NCBI GenBank assembly: GCA_024614665.1
Contig: GCA_024614665.1_4861.1
DNA from: a phage
DNA: 64,000 nucleotides
Strand: one strand, 5' to 3'
In this document: positions 4,035 to 64,000 of the stretch, piece after piece
How the letters are laid out: each line of letters begins with the position of its first letter
Position numbering within the stretch: the stretch's first letter is position 1
Position numbers and translations under genes: made by a program
The notes under the pieces: model-generated
Told to the model about the DNA's origin: nothing
The model's database searches: none
The model's input: only the letters and a program-made list of their open reading frames with translations

Positions 4035-4695
4035 AAAGACGAGCTTCGAGGTCGTCGATAATGGTATCTGTGAAATAGCTAATATCTAGCTGCTCCACGA
4101 AATCCCTGCGTTCCAGAATGCGCTCTGCGAAGAGCGTACCGTACCAACTAGGGACATTACTAACGCCGTTGCGTCCGAACTTCTGCTGGACATGACCAAC
4201 GGCATGGAATTTTGCATCACCTTTGCTTTTACCCTGTTCACGGGCAAACAGATAAGAACGGTGCATGTAATTGCTCACGTCATCTACAGACGGTATACCA
4301 CGGTCAGCTGCGGCAACTATCTCAGAGACAATCCCGTTGTAGTTCCCTTTGTGAGAACTGCGGTGTTCTAAGACTGCATGGGCAATCGTCAAACATTCAT
4401 CATCGGTAAGTTTATACTTACGTTTGAGCACTGGCTTGTTATCCAGTATCCAGCTATACCCTTTGATGTGGTGCGACGCACGGTCTTCTTTGGTAGAGAA
4501 GATGTCGTGAGCTGCCACCGCAATCAGTATCAGCTTCAGGTGTTCGGTTTGCCCAAGCATATACGCGATACGAATCGCATTTGATTTAACTGAGTTGATG
4601 TGATCCATGCGATGCGCACTATCGGTATAACGATAGAAGTCGCGGAATTGACGAACCAGTTTTTCCCAAAGTTTGTTGAGTTCAGTGCCCTGCAT
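4024..4695 (-). CDS. HD-domain phosphohydrolase
   Basis: 223 aa; H...HD metal-binding signature (HRMDH ... AVAAHDIF) typical of the HD superfamily. Confidence 0.55.
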   Translation of the reverse strand: MQGTELNKLWEKLVRQFRDFYRYTDSAHRMDHINSVKSNAIRIAYMLGQTEHLKLILIAVAAHDIFSTKEDRASHHIKGYSWILDNKPVLKRKYKLTDDECLTIAHAVLEHRSSHKGNYNGIVSEIVAAADRGIPSVDDVSNYMHRSYLFAREQGKSKGDAKFHAVGHVQQKFGRNGVSNVPSWYGTLFAERILERRDFVEQLDISYFTDTIIDDLEARLSHD

Positions 4696-5590: not shown

Positions 5591-5606
5591 GTAATAGTCG
5601 ATTAAA
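5591..5606 (-). promoter_or_regulatory. TTTAATCGACTATTACC element upstream of SD
   Basis: Minus-strand TTTAATCGACTATTACC CAGAAGGAG TATTTACA ATG. Confidence 0.45.
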
Positions 5607-43126: not shown

Positions 43127-43144
43127 TAAATAGTCGATTAAAAA
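43127..43144 (-). promoter_or_regulatory. TTTTTAATCGACTATTTAC element upstream of SD
   Basis: Minus-strand order: terminator, TTTTTAATCGACTATTTAC, GTAAGGTG SD, ATG. Confidence 0.45.
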
Positions 43145-48924: not shown

Positions 48925-49404
48925 TCATTGCACAAGGCAACTACTTCTGTGCCGTTCGTAGGCACGATTAAAAGACACTCTGTCTTCGCGATAGCCGCGA
49001 ATGAGAGACTTAATCTGTCGTGACAAATCACGACTAATGTCTTGAGGGCTACGAGAACCAGGGTCGAGATATATCCCAGTGGGTATATCATGAAGAGTGG
49101 GGCGAATAAACTCTTCACAAAGCGGTGCGGCCATCGGGGTGCGCCACCCCTTAGCTTCTGCGTAATTGTTCAACGACTTAGCGTACAGATAAACGTAATA
49201 AGCATAAGCGTTCACATCCGCAACAAACATTTTCCCTGCCAGCTTTTTCGCCTCAGGACTGTTCCCACCGACATAAACTGGTGGGTGTTCTAAAGGACGA
49301 AAAGGCCAATCTCCGGTTGAGGAGTAATCTGGGTCTACGTGACGGATGACCCCAGGGCATCCTGTCAACAATAGCACCAATATCGCCGCCAAAAATAACT
49401 TCAT
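48925..49404 (-). CDS. lipoprotein (o-spanin-like candidate)
   Basis: 159 aa; N-terminal signal with lipobox LLTGC. Confidence 0.5.
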   Translation of the reverse strand: MKLFLAAILVLLLTGCPGVIRHVDPDYSSTGDWPFRPLEHPPVYVGGNSPEAKKLAGKMFVADVNAYAYYVYLYAKSLNNYAEAKGWRTPMAAPLCEEFIRPTLHDIPTGIYLDPGSRSPQDISRDLSRQIKSLIRGYREDRVSFNRAYERHRSSCLVQ

Positions 49405-53529: not shown

Positions 53530-54123
53530 TTACGCATCGGCCTCAAAGAACGGCTGGTTTGGTACCACTGCGTATTCGAGCACGAACAGATGTTCTGGGG
53601 CATCTTCTGCTCGCCACAGTTTGTGACACGTTGCCAGTTTTTCCAGGATGGTCAGCCAGCTGAGTTGGCAAAACGCACGATCGCCGAAGAACAGTTTCTG
53701 CAGTGCAATTGACACATCCATATACGCCTGTTTGAAGTCGAGCCCTTTATCGTAACCTGCCGACTGTCGCCAGGTCAGCACGAAACCTGCTTCGGTTTCG
53801 TTAATTGCTGGACGTAAACCACAAATCCACATCAGTGCCAGATTAACGTTCCAGTCGAATTCGATACCTTCGTCTTCGTCATCACCAAACGCCGCGTTTA
53901 ACGCGTCGTAGAAACCGTGGTTCTCTGCGAACCATTCGCCGTACTCAACGTAGACCGGTGCTTCGACAGCCTCCCCATCGACTTCACCGATAGGGCGCTC
54001 TACATAGTTCGGGTTGGTTTGAACGTGTTCCGCACCCGCGCGAATCAGTTCGTAGACATCTTTGGCGGTGATTTGTGCGGCTGTTTTAAGACCTGGATAC
54101 CAGGGGCGTGTTACGAGTGTCAA
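53530..54123 (-). CDS. hypothetical protein
   Basis: 197-aa ORF overlapping the endolysin stop by 4 nt. Confidence 0.5.
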   Translation of the reverse strand: MTLVTRPWYPGLKTAAQITAKDVYELIRAGAEHVQTNPNYVERPIGEVDGEAVEAPVYVEYGEWFAENHGFYDALNAAFGDDEDEGIEFDWNVNLALMWICGLRPAINETEAGFVLTWRQSAGYDKGLDFKQAYMDVSIALQKLFFGDRAFCQLSWLTILEKLATCHKLWRAEDAPEHLFVLEYAVVPNQPFFEADA

Positions 54124-54842
54124 AGCAGTGCTCCTTTCATGATGGTGTTATTTGCCAGTAATGTACCGGCCGCAGGTGATATTTTGGTGTACAGCGTATC
54201 CCAGATTTTCTGAAGTTCAGCGACGCGTTGGTCGTGGTCTTCCTTCGCAAAAGCAAGCTGACGTGTTTCAGCTTTCGGTGGCGTCATTTTCGCACCGTAG
54301 AATGCTGCGTCTTTTCGGTAACTGGCCATCCAGCGTTTCCCGACCGGTGATTTCTTTTTAATCATCGCAACAGCAGCACTCTCACCGAAGCGGTAGCCTA
54401 ATGCGATTTCGGCTGTGCTCGGCTTGCGTTTGAGTTGTTTCGTCAGATGATCCTCGATGTGTTTCATGTAAACAGCAGCAAGCTGTACAGCATATTTCGG
54501 TTTATTAAGGTCTGCGTTCTTTGGGATGTTAAGTTGTTTCCCATACAGACGTATCATGGAGCGTTTAGTGCCTGTCGTCATTTGGACAACACTACTAGCA
54601 CTGCTCGATTTATTCTTACCCACGTTTTTATTAAAACGGGATTCACGGTAAATAGTGGTCGCAAGCATCCCGGCGTGTACACCTTGCTTTTGAGATGCGG
54701 AGACGATGAGAGGTTTAATCTCATTGAACTGGTCCTGGATAAGGACAAATTCTTTTTGATGTTTGTTACTGGTGGACTGGTAAGAAGCGTTGCTGTTGAA
54801 TGTGGTCACTGCTACCAGAAGAAATAAAATGGTGCGAAACAT
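54120..54842 (-). CDS. lytic transglycosylase-type endolysin with N-terminal signal peptide or SAR domain
   Basis: Start placed at ATG 54842 (MFRTILFLLVAVTTFNSNA, signal-like) with GGAG SD; SLT-type catalytic region YRESRFN ... SSASSVVQM. Confidence 0.55.
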   Translation of the reverse strand: MFRTILFLLVAVTTFNSNASYQSTSNKHQKEFVLIQDQFNEIKPLIVSASQKQGVHAGMLATTIYRESRFNKNVGKNKSSSASSVVQMTTGTKRSMIRLYGKQLNIPKNADLNKPKYAVQLAAVYMKHIEDHLTKQLKRKPSTAEIALGYRFGESAAVAMIKKKSPVGKRWMASYRKDAAFYGAKMTPPKAETRQLAFAKEDHDQRVAELQKIWDTLYTKISPAAGTLLANNTIMKGALL

Positions 54843-57391: not shown

Positions 57392-57522
57392 TAAAATAGC
57401 CACGTTACTACAAACGCTCCGATTGCGCAAACGATAAACGTGATACCAACATCTGTCCAGGTGGCACCGTCATACGCACCCGTTGCAATCATCGCCGCGT
57501 TGACACTATTCACGACTGTCAT
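57391..57522 (-). CDS. mini membrane peptide (43 aa), cassette member d
   Basis: ATG with AAGGGA SD; MTVVNSVNAAMIATGAYDGATWTDVGITFIVCAIGAFVVTWLF; start overlaps the upstream gene end. Confidence 0.35.
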   Translation of the reverse strand: MTVVNSVNAAMIATGAYDGATWTDVGITFIVCAIGAFVVTWLF

Positions 57523-57709
57523 AAGCCGGGTCCCTTAAACGTGGGGGCTTGCTCCACAGATTACCGAAGTAAACCCCTTCTAAGAACACCAAAACAACTA
57601 ATCCCCAAAAGGCAGGCGTGGCACGAGACAAGAAAATACCCAGCAGCACCGCAGTGTGCATTACCACAACTGCCCAAAACTTTAAACGTCGCGGTTTACG
57701 TGTTGCCAT
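57506..57709 (-). CDS. small membrane protein (67 aa, two TM helices), cassette member c
   Basis: Start placed at ATG 57709 (MATRKPRRLKFWAVVVMHTAVLLGIF...) with AAAGGA SD; overlaps neighbours on both sides. Confidence 0.4.
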   Translation of the reverse strand: MATRKPRRLKFWAVVVMHTAVLLGIFLSRATPAFWGLVVLVFLEGVYFGNLWSKPPRLRDPAYDSRE

Positions 57710-57800
57710 GGAATGCCCATCCTTTCGTGCGGATAATCCAATCCCAGGCACCACGAATTAACCACAGCGCAATACCGGTTAGTACAATACCTTCGATCAT
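57696..57800 (-). CDS. mini membrane peptide (34 aa), cassette member b
   Basis: ATG overlaps the TGA of the upstream gene (ATGA); MIEGIVLTGIALWLIRGAWDWIIRTKGWAFHGNT. Confidence 0.3.
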   Translation of the reverse strand: MIEGIVLTGIALWLIRGAWDWIIRTKGWAFHGNT

Positions 57801-57988
57801 GACCGTTCCCCTACATCTCGCCACTCACAACGTGTGTCGAACAGACGTTCTTTAAGAGCAGCAGCTAAATAAACAACCGCAGCGATAACCACTACGGTTG
57901 CACAAAAGGAGAGGTACAGTACCATCACAACAAACTGAAGGAACTGAAAACCCCACCAAGCCCATAAGCGCCAACCTTTATGATGCAT
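57797..57988 (-). CDS. small membrane protein (63 aa, two TM helices), cassette member a
   Basis: ATG lies within the last codons of the SbcC-like gene (11-nt overlap); hydrophobic WWGFQFLQFVVMVLYLSFCATVVVIAAVVYLAAAL. Confidence 0.4.
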   Translation of the reverse strand: MHHKGWRLWAWWGFQFLQFVVMVLYLSFCATVVVIAAVVYLAAALKERLFDTRCEWRDVGERS

Positions 57989-60488
57989 ATTTGATTATTA
58001 CCCCTTCGTTATAAACCGGTGGAAGCGTTACACCTTCTGGCTCGACGACACAGTAGGTGGCTTCGTTAAGTTTAGAATGAACTTCCGCTTCATGCGAAAC
58101 GACCAGTAATTGAGAAAACTCTCCCGACAACGCCAACGATTTAATGAAGTTAACTAATCGGTTTTTGTGTTCTTCATCCATGCCTTCAGATGGTTCATCC
58201 AATAACAAAGGATAGTTTTGTAAACCAAGCGCTTTATACGCCGTTAAACGAAACATCATGTTAAAGATAATACGCTGTGCTTTTGAACCTTTCTTCACAT
58301 CCGGTACCAGTTCTACATGGTCTTTTAATCGCACAGGGAACGTGTAGTCCAGATCCCCGTCGGTTAGATCGCACGGAATAACCTGCATCGGATATGCCCA
58401 CACCATTTCGATATACCGATTCATTAAATCCATGATGCGGGTAATCGCAGCGTAGAAGTAACGTCTCAGTAAACCTTTTTCAGGAGAAACCGCATTAATA
58501 ATCAGTCTGGCATGGTGGTGTTCTTTGAGCAACTCAGCTTGCTCTTTTTCCAGTTCCGCTAAACGTGCAATAGCCCCTTCCATTTGACGAAACCGTTCAC
58601 GAGCTGAAGTATACGCATCGAGCTTCGCTTCGCGGCGGTTTAACAACTCACGAACTACGACGTTGTTAACGGAGATGTTCATTTCCGATACCAGATGTTC
58701 GTAGCCCTTTTGGAAACGTTCGATTGCTTCTTTGGTTTGTTGCAGTTGGGTGGTTTCGCGTTCCAGCTCATTGGCTTGTCTGCGGTATTCTATCAGTCGA
58801 CGGTTAGCCCCGTCTAGTTGTGAACGGATATGTTCAATTTTCTGGCTCAGAGCACCATCAACATTACCTACTGCGGCAACAGCCTCTTGCCATTCCCGTT
58901 CCGCTGTTGCAAGCTTCGCTGATTGACGCAGATACATCATGGCCGAATCTAACTCTTCGGTAAAGGCACGTGCAATGGCACCATATCGATCCCGCGCCGT
59001 GGTGAAGATATCCAGCTCCTGTAGTTTACGGAAAAACAAACCGACAACGGGATGATTGGAATACGACATGACAATTTCGCGAATCGTACGTAGGCTACGG
59101 ACGTCCTCTTCAATCTCTTTGCGGTCACGCAAAAGACTATCCATTTCGTCTTTCAGCTGTTTTTTCCAACCTTCATTATCGTTGATGGCCTTTTCAATTT
59201 CAGGTAACGACTTACGAATCCCAGGACGGAAACGGTGGTTACACTGTGGACAATCAACTTCTGCAGTTTCTAAGAAGTGTTGACGGTCGTGGTATAAACC
59301 GTGTAGCACATTCTCACAACGTTGCAACTTTTCAGATAGACCCGCAGAGGTTAAATCCATACCCTGTAAACGCTTCTCTAACGCTCCTAGGCGCTCTGTT
59401 GTCTTTAACTGGTCCAGATGCATGGACAACGGTAAATTCCAGTTACAGGCGTCGTTTAACGCGTTCTGAATGCTATCCACGTCGATGCGGGTACCTTCAA
59501 ACAGAGCCGGGAACATCCAGTTCTGTTGGAACGTTGCCAGTTCCTGTTTTAAGCTGTCGATTGTTTGTTTTAGACCGGTATGGTTACGCATCAGATACGC
59601 TTGACGCGACTCCTCATCCAGTAGCTGTGACAACTCTTTATTGTACATGTTGCATTCAGTTTCAGCGGAGGCAGCTTGCTCACGCCAGGCAACCACACGA
59701 CTTTGAAACTCGTTAATCAGTTCGTCAGAAGGCAGAACGCCATAACGTTCCATAATGAGTTTTACAGCCGGTTGCAACGAAGCAATGCGTTTCCGGATAC
59801 TGTCAACCGAAACAGCGTTATCTAAACCGGGCCTTGCTTCAATTGTGCGGTTTAATTCTTGAAGCTCAGCATCGAGTTCTTTCAAACGAACTTCTAAACG
59901 TGCACGATCTTCTTCATCGTCAACGACGCGCATTTTTGCTTCGCCGATTTTTCGTCCGGTGTGTTCGATGGCCCCGCTTAAACTGGAAGCGAGTTTACGC
60001 AAACGTCGATAGCAGCCAACAACGTACGTCAGATCAGATTCTGACATTAACGTAAACCATTTACGACGAACTTCGGTAGTGGCGTCAGTTAATAAGGTCT
60101 CACCATTAATTAACTCTTTGATTTCTTTGGTGATTCCGGTTAATTGCTCCACCATGGAGTTGTAAACTTTGGCGTTTACCGAGTCCACAATGGGGACGCC
60201 TTTGGTGATATTGAAAATACTACAAGACAAAGAAGACCCACGTCGCAGGACTTCAAACTTAAGACGGTCGTCCCCGACTAACGCGTAGTTAGTGTAAGAA
60301 CCACCTTCACGGAATTCAGATTTTGCTGGAGCTAAGGGGAGAAAAACAGATAGGAGGCTTGTTTTACCGCAACCATTCCCACCAAGGATAATGGTAACGG
60401 TTGATTTAAGGGTGAAATCAAACGTTTCGATTTCATGTAACCCCATGCCGGTAAATCCTTTCAAAATGATACGTTCGACCTTGAGCAT
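57978..60488 (-). CDS. Rad50/SbcC-like SMC-family ATPase
   Basis: 836 aa; N-terminal Walker A GGNGCGKTSLL, long central coiled-coil-like region with CPQC zinc-hook-like motif, C-terminal Walker B LLLDEPSEGMD and H-loop-like VVSHE. Confidence 0.6.
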   Translation of the reverse strand: MLKVERIILKGFTGMGLHEIETFDFTLKSTVTIILGGNGCGKTSLLSVFLPLAPAKSEFREGGSYTNYALVGDDRLKFEVLRRGSSLSCSIFNITKGVPIVDSVNAKVYNSMVEQLTGITKEIKELINGETLLTDATTEVRRKWFTLMSESDLTYVVGCYRRLRKLASSLSGAIEHTGRKIGEAKMRVVDDEEDRARLEVRLKELDAELQELNRTIEARPGLDNAVSVDSIRKRIASLQPAVKLIMERYGVLPSDELINEFQSRVVAWREQAASAETECNMYNKELSQLLDEESRQAYLMRNHTGLKQTIDSLKQELATFQQNWMFPALFEGTRIDVDSIQNALNDACNWNLPLSMHLDQLKTTERLGALEKRLQGMDLTSAGLSEKLQRCENVLHGLYHDRQHFLETAEVDCPQCNHRFRPGIRKSLPEIEKAINDNEGWKKQLKDEMDSLLRDRKEIEEDVRSLRTIREIVMSYSNHPVVGLFFRKLQELDIFTTARDRYGAIARAFTEELDSAMMYLRQSAKLATAEREWQEAVAAVGNVDGALSQKIEHIRSQLDGANRRLIEYRRQANELERETTQLQQTKEAIERFQKGYEHLVSEMNISVNNVVVRELLNRREAKLDAYTSARERFRQMEGAIARLAELEKEQAELLKEHHHARLIINAVSPEKGLLRRYFYAAITRIMDLMNRYIEMVWAYPMQVIPCDLTDGDLDYTFPVRLKDHVELVPDVKKGSKAQRIIFNMMFRLTAYKALGLQNYPLLLDEPSEGMDEEHKNRLVNFIKSLALSGEFSQLLVVSHEAEVHSKLNEATYCVVEPEGVTLPPVYNEGVIIKYAS

Positions 60489-60508
60489 GTTTGCCTTCTA
60501 ATGAGAAA

Positions 60509-60521
60509 GTATTAGTCGTTC
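60509..60521 (-). promoter_or_regulatory. variant of the TTAATCGACTAT upstream element
   Basis: Minus-strand order: terminator, GAACGACTAATAC, GAAGG SD, ATG of the SbcC-like gene. Confidence 0.35.
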
Positions 60522-60540
60522 ATATCCAAAAGGTCATGCG

Positions 60541-60573
60541 TAAAAAAGAAGAAATGGAACCCCGAAGGGTTCC
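60541..60573 (-). terminator. intrinsic terminator
   Basis: Hairpin GGAACCC TTCG GGGTTCC followed on the minus strand by ATTTCTTCTTTTTTAC. Confidence 0.6.
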
Positions 60574-60584
60574 AGAGAGGAGAG

Positions 60585-61211
60585 TTATTGCGGAATAAAC
60601 TTACGGTGTCCGAGTGATTCCCAAAAACTATCGGTGCGCTCTTTGGTTAATTCATACCACGCACGCCCGGCATCAGAATCGACAACCTTTAACGTTTCAG
60701 TAAGCAGGAATTTGAACAGTTCAGCGCTACGACCGGGTGCTACACCGTCGAGATATATCGGAATTAAATAACCGGTTTTGATTTCTTCGTACGGTTGCGA
60801 TTGGTGCTGACCAACAACCCAGGCGTCAGCCGCGCTACCGACCAAAGTGGTGTTTACAGTTAACTCATCAGAAATCCAGTTAACGGTATCAGCCATTATT
60901 GAATCGCCATTGACGTAGAAGAAAACTAAACGTTTAGGTTGCTCCACCGAACCGGCCAAATCTAATGCAGTAGTTCCGGTGAAGATCGTATTATTGGGAT
61001 TACGTTCTGCAATAGGTAGAGCAAACCACGCTTCGAGCTGTTCCCAGCTACGCGGCAGTGCTTCTTTAAACCACTTCACCAATCGCGGGTATTCCAGAAA
61101 CCCTTCTACCTCTTCTTCCATCAGATTGATACGCAGTTTGGTATCCTGACGATTCGCTTTCTGACATGTCACCATGTCATCGATGAAACGAATCAGGGTA
61201 ATTTCGTTCAT
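60585..61211 (-). CDS. hypothetical protein
   Basis: 208-aa ORF; no Mre11/SbcD phosphoesterase motifs. Confidence 0.5.
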   Translation of the reverse strand: MNEITLIRFIDDMVTCQKANRQDTKLRINLMEEEVEGFLEYPRLVKWFKEALPRSWEQLEAWFALPIAERNPNNTIFTGTTALDLAGSVEQPKRLVFFYVNGDSIMADTVNWISDELTVNTTLVGSAADAWVVGQHQSQPYEEIKTGYLIPIYLDGVAPGRSAELFKFLLTETLKVVDSDAGRAWYELTKERTDSFWESLGHRKFIPQ

Positions 61212-61265
61212 GTTTAATCCTTCTTCAACAAAAAAAGAAGGTAGCCCGTAGGCTACCTCTCGTAT

Positions 61266-61766
61266 TTACAGCCCCATATGCATAAGGGAAATGATAGGGA
61301 CTTTTCGGCCACGTATCATTGCATACGGTTCGTACATTTGTGCGTTAGTTTCGAATAACTCACAGGCCGGAATACGATCGCCGGTAGAGAGTTGTAAGAC
61401 TTCGATTTGGTCGCCCCAGAAGTTATTCACTAATACGTGGTCGACAGTGTTGTCTTCACGACCTTCAGGGGTTTTGCAATAAGTGGCGGCATCGTACCAA
61501 CCTTTGCGGTATACTTCATAACCCGCGTGAAGCATCCGGTAGTACGGACGCAGTTGTGGGGCATTCAACGCAGCATCTAGCCACTCGCTGTGAATGCTGT
61601 TAATCAACACGGTCGCTTCTTCTGGCCACTCGCTGCGGTTTAGGGTTAACTCGCCTAACAGCTTTAACTTCCAGCCAGTGGAAAGAATAGCGCGGGTACG
61701 TTCTGGATTGACGTTCATCTGAGTAAAGAAAGTAGAACGAGTATCGTCAAGAATGTTCATGTTCAT
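61266..61766 (-). CDS. hypothetical protein
   Basis: Start placed at ATG 61766 (MNMNILDD) with TAAGGA SD; the longer ORF-track start would run through the regulatory element and terminator. Confidence 0.5.
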   Translation of the reverse strand: MNMNILDDTRSTFFTQMNVNPERTRAILSTGWKLKLLGELTLNRSEWPEEATVLINSIHSEWLDAALNAPQLRPYYRMLHAGYEVYRKGWYDAATYCKTPEGREDNTVDHVLVNNFWGDQIEVLQLSTGDRIPACELFETNAQMYEPYAMIRGRKVPIISLMHMGL

Positions 61767-61782
61767 TTGCTTAGTCCTTACG

Positions 61783-61802
61783 AGTAATAGTCGATTAAAA
61801 AG
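61783..61802 (-). promoter_or_regulatory. TTTTTAATCGACTATTACTC element upstream of SD
   Basis: Minus-strand order: terminator T-run, TTTTTAATCGACTATTACTC, GTAAGGA SD, ATG. Confidence 0.45.
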
Positions 61803-61804
61803 GA

Positions 61805-61866
61805 CCCTGCGGCTATGTGTTGGGGATATCACCGCAGGGCCAAAGTGAGATGGGTCGTCATCTCAC
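61805..61866 (-). terminator. tandem hairpins, putative terminator
   Basis: Hairpin GTGAGATG/CATCTCAC (61845-61866) and hairpin CCCTGCGG/CCGCAGGG with a large loop (61805-61839) followed on the minus strand by TCCTTTTTAAT. Confidence 0.4.
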
Positions 61867-61883
61867 GTTATAACATCTGTCTG
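61867..61883 (-). promoter_or_regulatory. AT-rich promoter-like element (weaker variant)
   Basis: Minus-strand CAGACAGATGTTATAAC just after the stop of gene 61896-62279; resembles the element at 37303-37323. Confidence 0.3.
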
Positions 61884-61895
61884 AAAACTTTTCGG

Positions 61896-62279
61896 TTACT
61901 GGTCGAGCGCTACTGAACCACGCACCACTCCTTGCTGTTCAATAACCAGGAGGCGTTGTTTGGTTTTCGTATTGTAAGCGAGCGACGCGCGAAGCGTCGG
62001 GTCGCACGTTATTGTCTCTACTGGCACAATCTCTTGTGCCTTTGAGTTCAACAAAAAGTAGTAACCTGCCGGACAAGTTTCCTCGCCCTTTGCGTGGACC
62101 AGGATGTACTCGTCGTGCCGGCTGACTTCTTCACATCTACCATCATCCCCAGTACAGACTTCGAACGAAGGCGGGTTGTACTGATACGGTGTGCCTGGTA
62201 GTAAATCTTCTACGCTAGTTGTAGCTGAAGCAGAAGCGGTAAAGAACACCGCCACGATAATACCCATAAATCCACGCAT
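61896..62279 (-). CDS. secreted protein (signal peptide)
   Basis: 127 aa; N-terminal MRGFMGIIVAVFFTASASA signal-like segment; AAGGAA SD. Confidence 0.5.
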   Translation of the reverse strand: MRGFMGIIVAVFFTASASATTSVEDLLPGTPYQYNPPSFEVCTGDDGRCEEVSRHDEYILVHAKGEETCPAGYYFLLNSKAQEIVPVETITCDPTLRASLAYNTKTKQRLLVIEQQGVVRGSVALDQ

Positions 62280-62292
62280 GTTGTTTCCTTAC

Positions 62293-62703
62293 TTAAAAGT
62301 CGAGTTTATTGATGCCTACGTTTTTCTTAATCGTAGGGTCATACATGATAACCGTCAGGGCATTATCACCTGGGTCGCGAGTAAACTCAGCAACGGCTTC
62401 ACCACTGCAGGCCTGGTTATCATTATAGTTCATGGTTTCGGCTTGCCCGGTTGCCATGTTAATAACCCCGTATTCCGGGTCGCCACATGCGACGCCGCCC
62501 ATCGTTTTCACTAACAGGTAACGGTTGTTATCGGACATCGCAACGATCTGGCAGCTACCGCCTTGTACGTCAGAGTTCTGGCACCAGAACTGGCCGCCGT
62601 ATTCGTGATCGTTAACAACTTTTGGTAACTCGATACTTCCAGCACGAGCGAAGAAGCTAATGGCCAGAGTAGCAAGTAAAACTGGTAATAAAAAATGTTT
62701 CAT
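62293..62703 (-). CDS. secreted protein (signal peptide)
   Basis: 136 aa; N-terminal MKHFLLPVLLATLAISFFARA signal; GAGGTG SD. Confidence 0.5.
   Translation of the reverse strand: MKHFLLPVLLATLAISFFARAGSIELPKVVNDHEYGGQFWCQNSDVQGGSCQIVAMSDNNRYLLVKTMGGVACGDPEYGVINMATGQAETMNYNDNQACSGEAVAEFTRDPGDNALTVIMYDPTIKKNVGINKLDF
62296..62308 (-). promoter_or_regulatory. variant of the TTAATCGACTAT upstream element
   Basis: Minus-strand AAACTCGACTTTT AAGTAAGGAAACAAC ATG. Confidence 0.3.
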
Positions 62704-62725
62704 AATAGCACCTCAATTTTTTGAG

Positions 62726-63217
62726 TTATTCTGAATAGTCGATTGTTTTGATAGTTTCCATACCGTAGTACATAGCGATGGAGGCCAGAGTTTTGGTATC
62801 CGGTCGCTGTACAAAACCGGCCCTGAAATCTTTGCTGCAAATTTTCTCCACTGATAGTTCATCACGATTAGGGATAAGCCATAACGCGTCACCGTTGTGA
62901 CGGTCGACTGCACCCCACCAACCACCTGGGCAATCTTTATCGCCCGGACGGTGTACGATAGCGACACGTCCGTTGAAGGATATGTCAACTACACGACACT
63001 GTTTCTTAAGCAGCTTACGCGCATTGCACCAGAACGGCTTATCATTAAGATTGATGGTGCGGGTATATGCTGGAATGCTGCCGTTAATACTGCCCTGGAA
63101 CCCGCTGAATTCGTCAGCGCGTGCCTTAGAAATCCGTAGCCCAACAACAAGTGCCATCAACAGCACAGTAAAAAGCACCACTTTGGCCAAGTGGCGATTA
63201 ACGTTATTGCATTTCAT
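62726..63217 (-). CDS. secreted protein (signal peptide)
   Basis: Start placed at ATG 63217 (MKCNNVNRHLAKVVLFTVLLMALVVGLRISKARA) with GGAG SD. Confidence 0.5.
   Translation of the reverse strand: MKCNNVNRHLAKVVLFTVLLMALVVGLRISKARADEFSGFQGSINGSIPAYTRTINLNDKPFWCNARKLLKKQCRVVDISFNGRVAIVHRPGDKDCPGGWWGAVDRHNGDALWLIPNRDELSVEKICSKDFRAGFVQRPDTKTLASIAMYYGMETIKTIDYSE
62733..62745 (-). promoter_or_regulatory. AATCGACTATTC element
   Basis: Minus-strand CAATCGACTATTCAGAATAA overlapping the last codons of the upstream gene, about 35 nt before ATG 62703. Confidence 0.4.
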
Positions 63218-63605
63218 TTTTAATATCTCCACGATTAAGGGTGATGCGACCGACGAGCACATCGTTGTGATAAAAACTCACAGCAACCAGATCTGGCAAT
63301 TCCAACGGCGATACACTGACCGAGGTGACTTTTGGTTGATTGCACGATATGTCGATTAATCGCTGATACATTTTCAATTTCTTATCAGCGATAACCAGCC
63401 CTGTGCAGTTCTTACCGTCCGTCAGTCTGTAGATTTGTAACTGTTCGACCTCACGCATCAGTTCCGGTTTTTCATTCGGTGCAATGGCATAATCCGAATC
63501 AGCTGATGTGTATTCAGTCACGTCTGGCTTATCGAAAGCATAAGTTGCTGCAATACCACATGCGGCCAGAACTACTACTGCTTGTAAGAACTTCTTGATA
63601 GTCAT
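63204..63605 (-). CDS. lipoprotein
   Basis: 133 aa; signal peptide with lipobox VLAACG. Confidence 0.5.
   Translation of the reverse strand: MTIKKFLQAVVVLAACGIAATYAFDKPDVTEYTSADSDYAIAPNEKPELMREVEQLQIYRLTDGKNCTGLVIADKKLKMYQRLIDISCNQPKVTSVSVSPLELPDLVAVSFYHNDVLVGRITLNRGDIKNEMQ
63227..63240 (-). promoter_or_regulatory. variant of the TTAATCGACTAT upstream element
   Basis: Minus-strand CCTTAATCGTGGAGATATTAAAA ATG. Confidence 0.3.
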
Positions 63606-63614
63606 GTTTTGCTC

Positions 63615-63627
63615 TATAGTCGATTGG
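63615..63627 (-). promoter_or_regulatory. AATCGACTATAG element
   Basis: Minus-strand order: terminator, AACCAATCGACTATAGAGCAAAAC, ATG. Confidence 0.4.
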
Positions 63628-63630
63628 TTT

Positions 63631-63659
63631 AAAAAAGAATAGGCTACCCGAGGGTAGCC
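63631..63659 (-). terminator. intrinsic terminator
   Basis: Hairpin GGCTACCC TC GGGTAGCC followed on the minus strand by TATTCTTTTTT. Confidence 0.6.
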
Positions 63660-63689
63660 AGTTGAGTTAATCTCTTAACTCTCACCTAG

Positions 63690-63706
63690 GTAATATATAT
63701 CTGAGA
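63690..63706 (-). promoter_or_regulatory. AT-rich promoter-like element (TATATTAC type)
   Basis: Minus-strand CTCAGATATATATTACCTAGGTGAG, near-identical to the element at 5632-5647. Confidence 0.5.
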
Positions 63707-63710
63707 TATT

Positions 63711-63971
63711 TTACAATGTGAAGGTTGTGTTAAGAATACGAAAACCCAATGCTCGCTTAGCGATTTGCATATTTGCAGGCGTGAAGTCCACCAGTTTGAT
63801 TTGAACGATCGATAAATCGTAAAGCTTGTGAAGCACTTCGATTTTGTGCCGCCAATCTGTTTTTTGGTGCAGCTCTATCGTCGTTGGTATCTCGCCTAGT
63901 CTCGGCAACTGTGCCCCAAGTAAACGATGATGGACTTTACCGTTTATAGTTGGGGTACCTTCCGTAACCAT
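63711..63971 (-). CDS. hypothetical protein
   Basis: 86-aa ORF close to the window edge; upstream region not fully visible. Confidence 0.4.
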   Translation of the reverse strand: MVTEGTPTINGKVHHRLLGAQLPRLGEIPTTIELHQKTDWRHKIEVLHKLYDLSIVQIKLVDFTPANMQIAKRALGFRILNTTFTL

Positions 63972-64000
63972 CAGTCGTGCATCGATGTAGTTATTTCGCT

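What the first reader, a model, noticed from the sequence alone, without database searches (positions are those of the whole stretch)
61896..63605. Array of four genes for secreted or lipid-anchored small proteins, each with its own upstream element
Four consecutive minus-strand genes (127, 136, 163 and 133 aa) all start with signal peptides, one with a lipobox (VLAACG), and all are Cys-containing. Each is preceded by a copy or variant of the TCGACTAT element, suggesting individual regulation. Periplasmic phage proteins of this kind commonly block receptors, injection by other phages, or envelope-located defence sensors.
Basis: partly seen in the sequence, partly recalled or inferred. Interest (0 to 1): 0.55.

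Follow-up and report, generated by a model that had tools for sequence, protein, structure and literature searches.

The report
Operon of four exported phage paralogs
A giant Salmonella phage of the SPN3US type carries one operon of four duplicated genes for small proteins that are sent to the space between the bacterial membranes; the genes and export signals are real, but the function is unknown and the claim that each gene has its own control element does not hold.

Summary
The window is an SPN3US-like jumbo phage (Seoulvirus, 96-97% nt identity). The four minus-strand genes are SPN3US gp180-gp183, all annotated hypothetical. Their lengths, N-terminal signal peptides, Cys content and the VLAAC|G lipobox are all present.

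New here:
- The family is tiny: 34 representatives among 1.84 billion proteins. Every sequence I read has an N-terminal signal peptide, and most of the contexts I looked at are mobile elements.
- Copy number at this locus varies from 1 to 4.

The lipobox is absent from orthologs 72-74% identical, which keep an ordinary cleavage site. TCGACTAT is a real, strand-specific element with about 13 sites per genome. It is conserved only before gene A and before the next gene (gp184). Gene B has none, and the copies before C and D lie in coding sequence and are lineage-specific. The array is one tightly packed operon behind an early-promoter-like element.

No function was shown. Envelope binding or superinfection exclusion is the best guess.

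The parts
63204..63605 (-). Gene A (133 aa; SPN3US gp180). It has a signal peptide, with a lipobox LAAC|G at residues 13-16 and an alternative SPase I site ATYA|F at residues 23/24. The mature domain has 2 Cys. It is a distant paralog of B, C and D.
62726..63217 (-). Gene B (163 aa; gp181). It has a long signal peptide cut at KARA|DEF and a mature domain with 4 Cys. Its start overlaps the end of A by 14 nt, and a GGAG lies 9 nt upstream, which suggests translational coupling.
   Evidence: phrog_17072, cross-hit to phrog_8968; BLASTP against C, E 4e-8; P0080 has a different signal peptide and the same mature N-terminus.
62293..62703 (-). Gene C (136 aa; gp182). It has a signal peptide cut at ARA|G and a mature domain of 115 aa with 4 Cys.
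61896..62279 (-). Gene D (127 aa; gp183). It has a signal peptide cut at ASA|T and a mature domain of 108 aa with 4 Cys, including the family's CPAGYYF motif.
   Evidence: phrog_5248, cross-hit to phrog_8968 at E 1e-3; alignment.
63616..63623 (-). TCGACTAT element at the head of the operon, 10 nt before the ATG of A. This position is conserved across genera: TCGACTGT in SPN3US, TCGACCAT in SPAsTU, TTCGACTAT in phiEaH2.
62735..62742 (-). Exact TCGACTAT inside the last codons of B, 31 nt before the ATG of C. It is seen only in the window and SPN3US. It is absent from SPAsTU, phiEaH2, ChrisDB, Kwan and Machina.
62296..62303 (-). Variant TCGACTTT inside the last codons of C, 16 nt before the ATG of D. 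It is seen only in the window and SPN3US.
63681..63704 (-). AT-rich 24-nt element TCAGATATATATTACCTAGGTGAG, resembling an early promoter. It is followed by a hairpin at 63681-63664.
   Evidence: about 8 copies per SPN3US genome, each upstream of a TCGACTAT-type site; fold. The analogy to early promoters of phiKZ and 201phi2-1 comes from PMC7598289 and PMC11512511.
63642..63659 (-). Terminator-like hairpin GGCTACCCTCGGGTAGCC followed by a T-run. It lies between the early-like element and TCGACTAT and marks the upstream border of the operon.
61797..61840 (-). Hairpin GCCCTGCGG...CCGCAGGGT followed by a T-run, after the stop of D. It marks the downstream border of the operon.
   Evidence: Read from the sequence. 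The same structure is conserved in SPN3US, phiEaH2, Kwan and SPAsTU.
61787..61794 (-). TCGACTAT directly after that terminator, 20 nt before the annotated ATG of the next gene (gp184 homolog, not exported) at 61766. This position is conserved across genera.

Best explanation
The locus is one operon of four tandemly duplicated genes (SPN3US gp180-gp183).

Shown or strongly supported:
- Each gene encodes a protein of about 12-15 kDa that the Sec system most likely exports to the periplasm.
- There it most likely folds into a compact all-beta domain that looks like two blades of a beta-propeller.
- The domain carries conserved Cys pairs: C3-C4 in all members, and C1-C2 additionally in B, C and D.

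Inferred:
- In the window's lineage protein A may also be lipid-anchored, with Gly at +2, which would send it to the outer membrane.
- The operon sits behind an AT-rich element like the early (virion RNA polymerase) promoters of phiKZ-type phages. It also carries at its head a second phage-specific element, TCGACTAT. It is therefore probably expressed early.
- The proteins act as non-enzymatic binders of envelope components. Their most likely use is to change the infected cell's surface or periplasm so that further phages cannot adsorb or inject. The several diverged copies would cover several targets.
For: - Identity of the phage and genes.
- Export: canonical signal peptides in the sequences read from the roughly 70 family members recovered from phages and metagenomes. 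The signal sequences diverge while the mature N-termini are kept.
- Disulfides: C1 and C2 appear and disappear together, and C3 and C4 are near-universal.
- No catalytic family matched in Pfam, NCBIfam or PADLOC, and PHROGs gave only families of unknown function.
- Restriction to mobile elements: only 34 representatives among 1.84e9 proteins. They are found in SPN3US-like, Erwinia and CR5-like jumbo phages, in a prophage between the RusA region and the terminase genes on the opposite strand, and on a contig with Rep3 and KfrA.
- Copy number at the syntenic locus is 1 (L023, with a second copy about 1 kb upstream), 3 and 4. Such variation is typical of accessory genes under an arms race.
- Operon structure and upstream elements.
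- The gene names gp180-gp183 do not occur in the main text of the SPN3US essential-gene and virion papers.
Against: - No experiment and no homology link these proteins to exclusion or to any target.
- SignalP and LipoP could not be run.
- The expression time is inferred only by analogy with promoters of other jumbo phages. A terminator-like hairpin also lies between the early-like element and gene A.
- One remote member (P0090) lies in an ordinary-looking bacterial chromosomal neighbourhood.
- The proteins are well conserved within Seoulvirus (94-100%), not hypervariable.
- The SPN3US infection proteome paper (PMC6384053) could not be read.
Confidence: 0.4

Rival explanations
1. The proteins are periplasmic regulators or inhibitors of cell-wall hydrolases or of lysis timing. 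They would bind the phage's own exported lytic transglycosylase, host autolysins or a holin ectodomain. Known examples of this kind are T4 Spackle (inhibits the gp5 lysozyme), T4 RI (antiholin) and Ivy/MliC/PliC (lysozyme inhibitors).
For: - They are small, periplasmic and Cys-paired, with no enzymatic signature.
- The same window encodes an SLT-type transglycosylase with a signal peptide (54842..54120) and two small membrane proteins (annotation).
- One remote member gave a chance-level hit to the Tsi3 immunity family (E 0.2). This is a lead only.
Against: - No sequence or fold similarity to Spackle, RI, Ivy, MliC/PliC or PliG.
- The genes are not next to the endolysin or the transglycosylase.
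- Four diverged copies are not needed for one enzyme.
Confidence: 0.15
2. The proteins are lectin-like modules. Two-blade units would assemble, as homo- or hetero-oligomers, into a closed propeller that binds an envelope glycan such as LPS core, peptidoglycan, enterobacterial common antigen or periplasmic glucans.
For: - The family profile weakly matches the repeat of the ThreeFoil lectin (GYYKLV...; i-E-value 0.5-1.8 per repeat).
- Natural two-blade lectins that trimerise are known, for example RSL of Ralstonia (from my own knowledge).
Against: - No sugar-binding motif was identified.
- Oligomer prediction could not be run.
- Copy number varies (1, 3 and 4 at the locus), which argues against a fixed hetero-oligomer.
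Confidence: 0.15
3. The proteins are counter-defence factors. They would mask or jam envelope-located host sensors or abortive-infection effectors, or they would dampen envelope stress responses during the long infection of a jumbo phage.
For: - They are located in the periplasm, probably expressed early and restricted to mobile elements.
- Several paralogs could match several host systems.
Against: - No PADLOC hit or known anti-defence hit.
- No host partner is known.
- Members carried by a prophage and on a plasmid-like contig are more easily read as exclusion factors protecting the host of the element.
Confidence: 0.1
4. Each gene is separately regulated through its own TCGACTAT element. 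This is the regulatory part of the first reader's reading.
For: - There are exact copies before A and C and a one-mismatch copy before D, each 10-31 nt from the ATG.
- A one-mismatch copy within 40 nt of a given start on the right strand is expected only about 1-2% of the time (my estimate from the counts).
Against: - B has no copy.
- The C and D copies lie in coding sequence and are absent in SPAsTU, phiEaH2, ChrisDB, Kwan and Machina.
- The genes are packed at -14, 22 and 13 nt. The single terminator-like match inside B's signal-peptide codons looks like chance.
Confidence: 0.15

Closest known systems
Phage-encoded periplasmic or outer-membrane exclusion proteins (T4 Imm and Spackle, T5 Llp, phi80/N15 Cor, P22 SieA)
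   Same: They are small accessory proteins of phages. They carry a signal peptide or lipobox, act in the envelope and are not part of the virion. Like the remote member P0100, the prophage-borne ones are accessory, moron-type genes.
   Different: There is no sequence or fold similarity. The known ones are single genes, not arrays of 3-4 paralogs. No exclusion phenotype has been shown here.
Beta-propeller proteins (WD40, TolB, S9 peptidase propellers) and two-blade self-assembling units (designed Pizza2/3; RSL-type lectins)
   Different: There are only two blades in about 110 residues. Z stays below 8 and identity is 3-14%. No WD or Kelch sequence motif is present. Cys pairs stabilise the unit. 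Ring closure by oligomerisation was not tested.
PHROG families 9424, 17072, 8968 and 5248
   Same: The four proteins are full-length members (E 1e-44 to 1e-85).
   Different: PHROGs lists them as four separate families of unknown function. Here they are shown to be one superfamily with a common fold.
Early (virion RNA polymerase) promoters of phiKZ-type jumbo phages
   Same: The element is AT-rich, highly conserved and about 25 nt long. It occurs only a handful of times per genome, upstream of hypothetical genes (PMC7598289, PMC11512511).
   Different: No transcription start site has been mapped in SPN3US. Here the element is followed by a hairpin and then by a second conserved element (TCGACTAT), which has not been described for phiKZ, 201phi2-1 or AR9 in the papers I read.

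Membership tests
Sec-type signal peptide (SPase I substrate) | A basic n-region, a hydrophobic h-region of 7-15 residues and a small-x-small motif at -3/-1 | tested here: met
   By inspection and a hydropathy scan for B, C and D (10-residue Kyte-Doolittle means 2.4-2.9). Sites are KARA|D, FARA|G and ASA|T. The feature is conserved in the orthologs read. A was judged by inspection only; the scan did not list it. SignalP was not available.
Sec-type signal peptide (SPase I substrate) | Demonstrated cleavage and export | not testable with these tools
   This needs PhoA or Bla fusions, or N-terminal sequencing or mass spectrometry of periplasmic extracts.
Bacterial lipoprotein (SPase II substrate), gene A | A lipobox [LVI][ASTVI][GAS]C at the end of the h-region, within about 15-35 residues of the start | tested here: met
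   L-A-A-C at residues 13-16 after MTIKK-FLQAVVV. Gly at +2 would allow sorting to the outer membrane (rule from my own knowledge).
Bacterial lipoprotein (SPase II substrate), gene A | Lipobox Cys conserved among orthologs | tested here: not met
   The Cys is present only in SPN3US-type sequences (P0053) and in P0057 (LATC). Orthologs 72-74% identical (P0062-P0064) have no Cys there. Erwinia-phage orthologs have non-canonical AVC or VVC, or no Cys at all. The SPN3US-near orthologs (P0053, P0057, P0062-64) keep the ATYA|F site, and the Erwinia-phage orthologs have their own small-x-small sites at the aligned position.
Bacterial lipoprotein (SPase II substrate), gene A | Acylation and globomycin-sensitive processing | not testable with these tools
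   This needs an experiment.
Known superinfection-exclusion or receptor-blocking families (Imm, Sp, Cor, Llp, SieA) | Sequence or profile similarity to a characterised member | tested here: not met
   No Pfam, NCBIfam or PADLOC hit. The PHROG hits are only to families of unknown function.
Known superinfection-exclusion or receptor-blocking families (Imm, Sp, Cor, Llp, SieA) | Exclusion phenotype on expression | not testable with these tools
   This needs plating and adsorption assays.
Beta-propeller superfolds | A closed ring of at least 4 four-stranded blades in one chain or assembly | tested here: inconclusive
Ricin-type beta-trefoil lectins | Three QxW-type repeats forming a trefoil | tested here: not met
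Periplasmic lysozyme inhibitors (Ivy, MliC/PliC, PliG, PliI) | Family profile match or fold match | tested here: not met
phiKZ-type early promoter (for the upstream AT-rich element) | A conserved AT-rich motif about 10 bp upstream of a mapped early transcription start site | tested here: inconclusive
   The motif is present and repeated about 8 times per genome. No data on start sites or timing were available for this phage.

The most novel reading that the evidence does not exclude
The two-blade modules are the building blocks of a periplasmic ring. Paralogs A-D (or homo-oligomers of each) would close into a six- or eight-bladed pseudo-propeller that clamps an envelope structure used for phage entry. 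SPN3US is, as I recall, flagellum-dependent, so the flagellar basal body is one candidate. This would be a new, mobile-element-borne class of entry-exclusion device shared by jumbo phages, prophages and plasmids.
Probability: 0.08. Interest if true: 0.7.

Novelty: new variant of a known kind. Interest (0 to 1): 0.4.

Why it matters
Work on nucleus-forming jumbo phages has concentrated on the cytoplasm: the phage nucleus, tubulin and RNA polymerases. What these phages do in the periplasm is almost unexplored.

This locus gives a defined, non-virion, probably early operon of exported proteins with a confident structural model, in SPN3US, which has an established amber-mutant genetic system. If the proteins block superinfection or tune the envelope, they would be a new protein family for that task, one that also occurs in a prophage and on a plasmid-like contig.

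The TCGACTAT element is a separate point of interest. It is a second conserved regulatory motif that can be recognised by sequence alone. A review states that middle and late promoters of jumbo phages cannot be predicted bioinformatically (PMC7598289).

Tried and rejected
- Pfam, NCBIfam and PADLOC gave nothing for the four proteins, and Pfam and NCBIfam gave nothing for the remote relatives.
- Rfam on 60000-64000 gave only a chance snoRNA hit.
- Sigma-70 promoter scan: fewer hits than in shuffled sequence, so there is no evidence for host promoters.
- The AlphaFold-database library (afdb50) was unavailable. BFVD returned only orthologs.
- The PDB profile search gave only the repeat-inflated ThreeFoil match, which I rejected as evidence of membership.
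- The GTDB genome scan with the remote subfamily found no relatives. A first attempt failed because no block was conserved enough.
- Literature: the names gp180-gp183 do not occur in the main text of the SPN3US papers I could read. The SPN3US infection proteome paper (PMC6384053) and the phiKZ transcription paper (PMC4178840) are not held. Motif strings gave no relevant paper. A jumbo-phage comparative genomics paper does not discuss secreted proteins.
- I considered o-spanin or i-spanin identity for the lipobox protein and rejected it. It is too large, it has a folded beta domain, no partner gene is embedded in it or overlaps it in the spanin manner, and it is not near the endolysin.
- I considered that AATCGTGGAG before B is an element variant and rejected it. 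It differs at 4 of 10 positions and is fixed by the coding sequence of A.
Full report
**What the window is.** The 2.5 kb around the finding is 96-97% identical to SPN3US and its relatives, which are about 240 kb jumbo phages of the genus Seoulvirus. SPN3US is listed among the nucleus-forming Chimalliviridae in PMC13282480. The four genes correspond to SPN3US_0180 to 0183, all annotated as hypothetical proteins. They lie upstream of gp184, gp185 and gp186. The last is the SbcC/SMC-like protein, which is an essential gene according to PMC5105663.

**Checking the observation.**
- The four minus-strand ORFs are present: A 63605..63204 (133 aa), B 63217..62726 (163 aa), C 62703..62293 (136 aa) and D 62279..61896 (127 aa).
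- The longest ORF for B is 178 aa. The 163-aa start is preceded by GGAG and matches the orthologs, so I use it.
- All four start with a basic n-region, a hydrophobic core and a small-x-small site.
- I had no SignalP. The comparative evidence is nevertheless strong. All family members whose sequences I read, out of about 70 recovered, keep such an N-terminus while its sequence changes freely. One B ortholog (P0080) has an unrelated signal peptide cleaved in front of the same mature sequence DEFSGFQ.
- A crude hydropathy census finds only about 10 such N-termini among 270 SPN3US ORFs. In the window the only others are a lipoprotein, an SLT transglycosylase and two small membrane proteins.

**The four are paralogs.**
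- PHROGs files them in four different families of unknown function, but the profiles cross-hit.
- B and C align at E 4e-8.
- The A-type and B/C/D-type alignments match by hhalign at 87% probability and E 4e-6, with the last two Cys in register.
- B, C and D share four Cys. A and the remote relatives have only the last two. C1 and C2 are thus gained or lost together, which suggests disulfides C1-C2 and C3-C4.

**Fold.**
- AlphaFold2 with family alignments gave confident models: mature C at pLDDT 92.3 and pTM 0.86, and mature A at pLDDT 85.8.
- Both are all-beta with seven to eight strands.
- BFVD returned only orthologs from Erwinia jumbo phages.
- A profile search of PDB sequences hit only the designed lectin ThreeFoil. 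That E-value comes from one marginal 40-residue match counted three times, so I treat it as a lead and not as evidence.
- Pfam, NCBIfam and PADLOC gave nothing for the window proteins, and Pfam and NCBIfam gave nothing for remote relatives.

**Distribution.**
- By tblastn, A and C are each found in 64 phage records. These are Seoulvirus on Salmonella, E. coli and Proteus, plus Erwinia jumbo phages such as Erskinevirus, Machinavirus and Wellingtonvirus.
- A full HMMER profile search of 1.84 billion representative proteins found only 34 hits at E of 1e-3 or better. Of these, 33 are 81-182 aa; the one long protein (P0103, 1117 aa) I did not examine. The full-length small ones I read have signal peptides, and most carry the GGxxCP[AG]G...C signature.
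- Contexts I could look up:
  - a Cronobacter CR5-like jumbo phage, with a single copy;
  - a 40% GC contig with the same synteny to the SMC-like gene, with one copy at the locus and another about 1 kb upstream;
  - a prophage, where the gene sits alone on the opposite strand between the RusA region and the terminase genes, a typical position for an accessory (moron) gene;
  - a contig with Rep3 and KfrA, which looks like a plasmid;
  - one ordinary chromosomal neighbourhood;
  - three short contigs that say little: L009, L016 and L024.
- At the SPN3US-type locus the copy number is 3 in ChrisDB, Machina and pSal-SNUABM-04, and 4 in SPN3US, phiEaH2 and Kwan.
- This is the pattern of an accessory, mobile-element-borne family that expands by tandem duplication.

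**The lipobox.** VLAAC|G in A is a textbook lipobox, and Gly at +2 would permit sorting to the outer membrane. The Cys, however, is present only in the SPN3US-near lineage. Orthologs 72-74% identical (P0062-P0064) have no Cys there and keep the ATYA|F site. Erwinia-phage orthologs have ordinary SPase I sites. Lipidation may be real in this lineage, but it is not a property of the family.

**The TCGACTAT element.**
- It is real. In the window the 8-mer occurs 7 times against 1.9 expected, and the 10-mer AATCGACTAT occurs 6 times. All of these copies are on the gene strand.
- I assembled the whole SPN3US genome from five fetched pieces. There, 6 of 15 exact copies are intergenic and 14-21 nt upstream of a start codon, although only 7.5% of the genome is intergenic.
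- One-mismatch sites (TCGACCAT, CCGACTAT, TCGACTGT) with the same geometry bring the total to about 13.
- Six of these 13 sites follow an exact copy of a 24-nt AT-rich element, TCAGATATATATTACYTAGGTGAG. In five of the six the spacing is about 30 nt; before gene A it is about 66 nt. Two more follow a variant of the element. Each copy of the element is followed by a hairpin, and there are about 8 copies per genome.
- In number, composition and conservation, this AT-rich element resembles the early promoters read by the virion RNA polymerase in phiKZ, 201phi2-1 and AR9 (PMC7598289; PMC11512511).
- I could not decide whether TCGACTAT is a second promoter or a leader RNA element.

**The element and the array.**
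- Upstream of A the order is: early-like element (63704-63681), hairpin, terminator-like hairpin with T-run (63659-63642), TCGACTAT (63623-63616), then the ATG 10 nt later.
- B has no copy, and its start overlaps the end of A.
- The copy before C lies in the last codons of B. The TCGACTTT before D lies in the last codons of C.
- In SPAsTU (about 70% protein identity), phiEaH2, ChrisDB, Kwan and Machina there is no copy before the homologs of B, C or D. The element is kept before the first gene of the array in SPAsTU and phiEaH2, and before the gp184 homolog in SPAsTU, phiEaH2, Kwan and Machina/pSal-SNUABM-04 (as variants in the last two groups). ChrisDB has no recognisable copy at either place.
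- With gaps of -14, 22 and 13 nt, no convincing internal terminator and terminator hairpins on both sides, the array is one operon with one conserved element at its head.
- The idea of individual regulation is therefore not supported, although the SPN3US-specific copies before C and D might add internal starts.

**Mechanism.**
- Shown or strongly supported: the genes are real, paralogous and conserved. Their products carry export signals and conserved Cys pairs. They fold into a small beta domain with no close solved relative. The family is largely confined to mobile elements.
- Inferred: they are located in the periplasm with disulfides formed there, they are expressed early, and they act by binding rather than by catalysis.
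- My preferred function is modification or masking of envelope components so that further phages cannot adsorb or inject. It fits the prophage and plasmid-like relatives and the variable copy number.
- No test supports that function, and I give the whole chain about 0.4.
- Rivals are regulation of wall hydrolases or lysis timing, lectin-like glycan binding possibly through oligomeric propellers, and counter-defence at the envelope.

**Comparison with known systems.** The array works like the class of small exported phage accessory proteins such as Imm, Spackle, Llp, Cor and RI. It fails every membership test for those families. It belongs only to PHROG families of unknown function. Structurally, its nearest known relatives are propeller blade pairs.

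**Novelty and score.**
- The genes are already in GenBank as hypothetical proteins.
- New here are the unification of four PHROGs into one exported two-blade family, its restriction to mobile elements, the correction on the lipobox and on the per-gene elements, and the description of the composite upstream elements.
- This is a modestly interesting, experimentally tractable locus rather than a surprise, so I score interest at 0.4.

Noticed in passing
window 63704-63664 and about 5646-5605 (minus strand); SPN3US genome positions 56299, 65418, 94244, 113991, 165692, 223282, with variants near 4440 and 23800: A 24-nt AT-rich element TCAGATATATATTACYTAGGTGAG is followed by a short hairpin. It occurs about 8 times per genome, always upstream of a TCGACTAT-type site and a hypothetical gene. 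The spacing is about 30 nt in most copies and about 66 nt before gene A. It looks like the early (virion RNA polymerase) promoter class of phiKZ-type phages. I found no description of it for SPN3US.
   Followed up: partly
window 63704-63616 (minus strand), compared with L026 (SPAsTU) 558-902, L002 (phiEaH2) 2242-2481, L004 (Kwan) 2212-2457 and L003 (ChrisDB) 2217-2468: In the window and in SPN3US the early-like element before gene A runs straight into a terminator hairpin. Relatives have a 79-83 aa gene between this region and gene A. In SPAsTU the order is element, hairpin, terminator-like hairpin, small gene, then A. The window seems to have lost that gene, leaving a promoter-hairpin-terminator stub that could give a transcript of about 55 nt or act as an attenuator.
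   Followed up: partly
SPN3US genome (L017-L021), about 13 sites; window 43130-43137 and 5594-5601: TCGACTAT/TCGACCAT sites are confined to the leaders of non-structural hypothetical genes, 10-21 nt before the ATG and just 5' of the Shine-Dalgarno sequence. Several are at second cistrons of the same units. This could be a second promoter class recognisable from sequence, or a leader RNA element.
   Followed up: partly
window 54120-54842 (-), 48925-49404 (-), 57506-57709 (-), 57797-57988 (-): These are the other envelope-directed products in the window. They are an SLT-type transglycosylase with a signal peptide, a 159-aa lipoprotein (LLTGC), and two small membrane proteins directly after the SbcC-like gene. 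They could be partners or lysis components.
   Followed up: no
GenBank records LR535901-LR535913 (Salmonella phages SPFM1, 5-10, 12, 14, 15, 20): In these records the region matches in many short BLAST pieces (up to 32), and the proteins are truncated or frameshifted. These look like assembly or sequencing errors rather than biology. Such records should be kept out of alignments.
   Followed up: no
L008 5001-5348; L022 5001-5549; L023 2146-2532 and 3545-3901; L014 5001-5384: Remote two-Cys members of the family occur in several contexts. One is a lone opposite-strand gene in a prophage next to the terminase genes. One is on a plasmid-like contig with Rep3 and KfrA. Two copies lie in an unknown 40% GC phage-like contig that keeps the synteny to the SMC-like gene. 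One is a single copy in CR5-like jumbo phages, two genes upstream of a 2474-aa SLT protein.
   Followed up: partly
window 60585-61832 (-): The gp184 and gp185 homologs (166 and 208 aa; phrog_8115 and phrog_9964, both of unknown function) always follow the array and precede the essential SbcC-like gene in all genera examined. They have no export signal.
   Followed up: no
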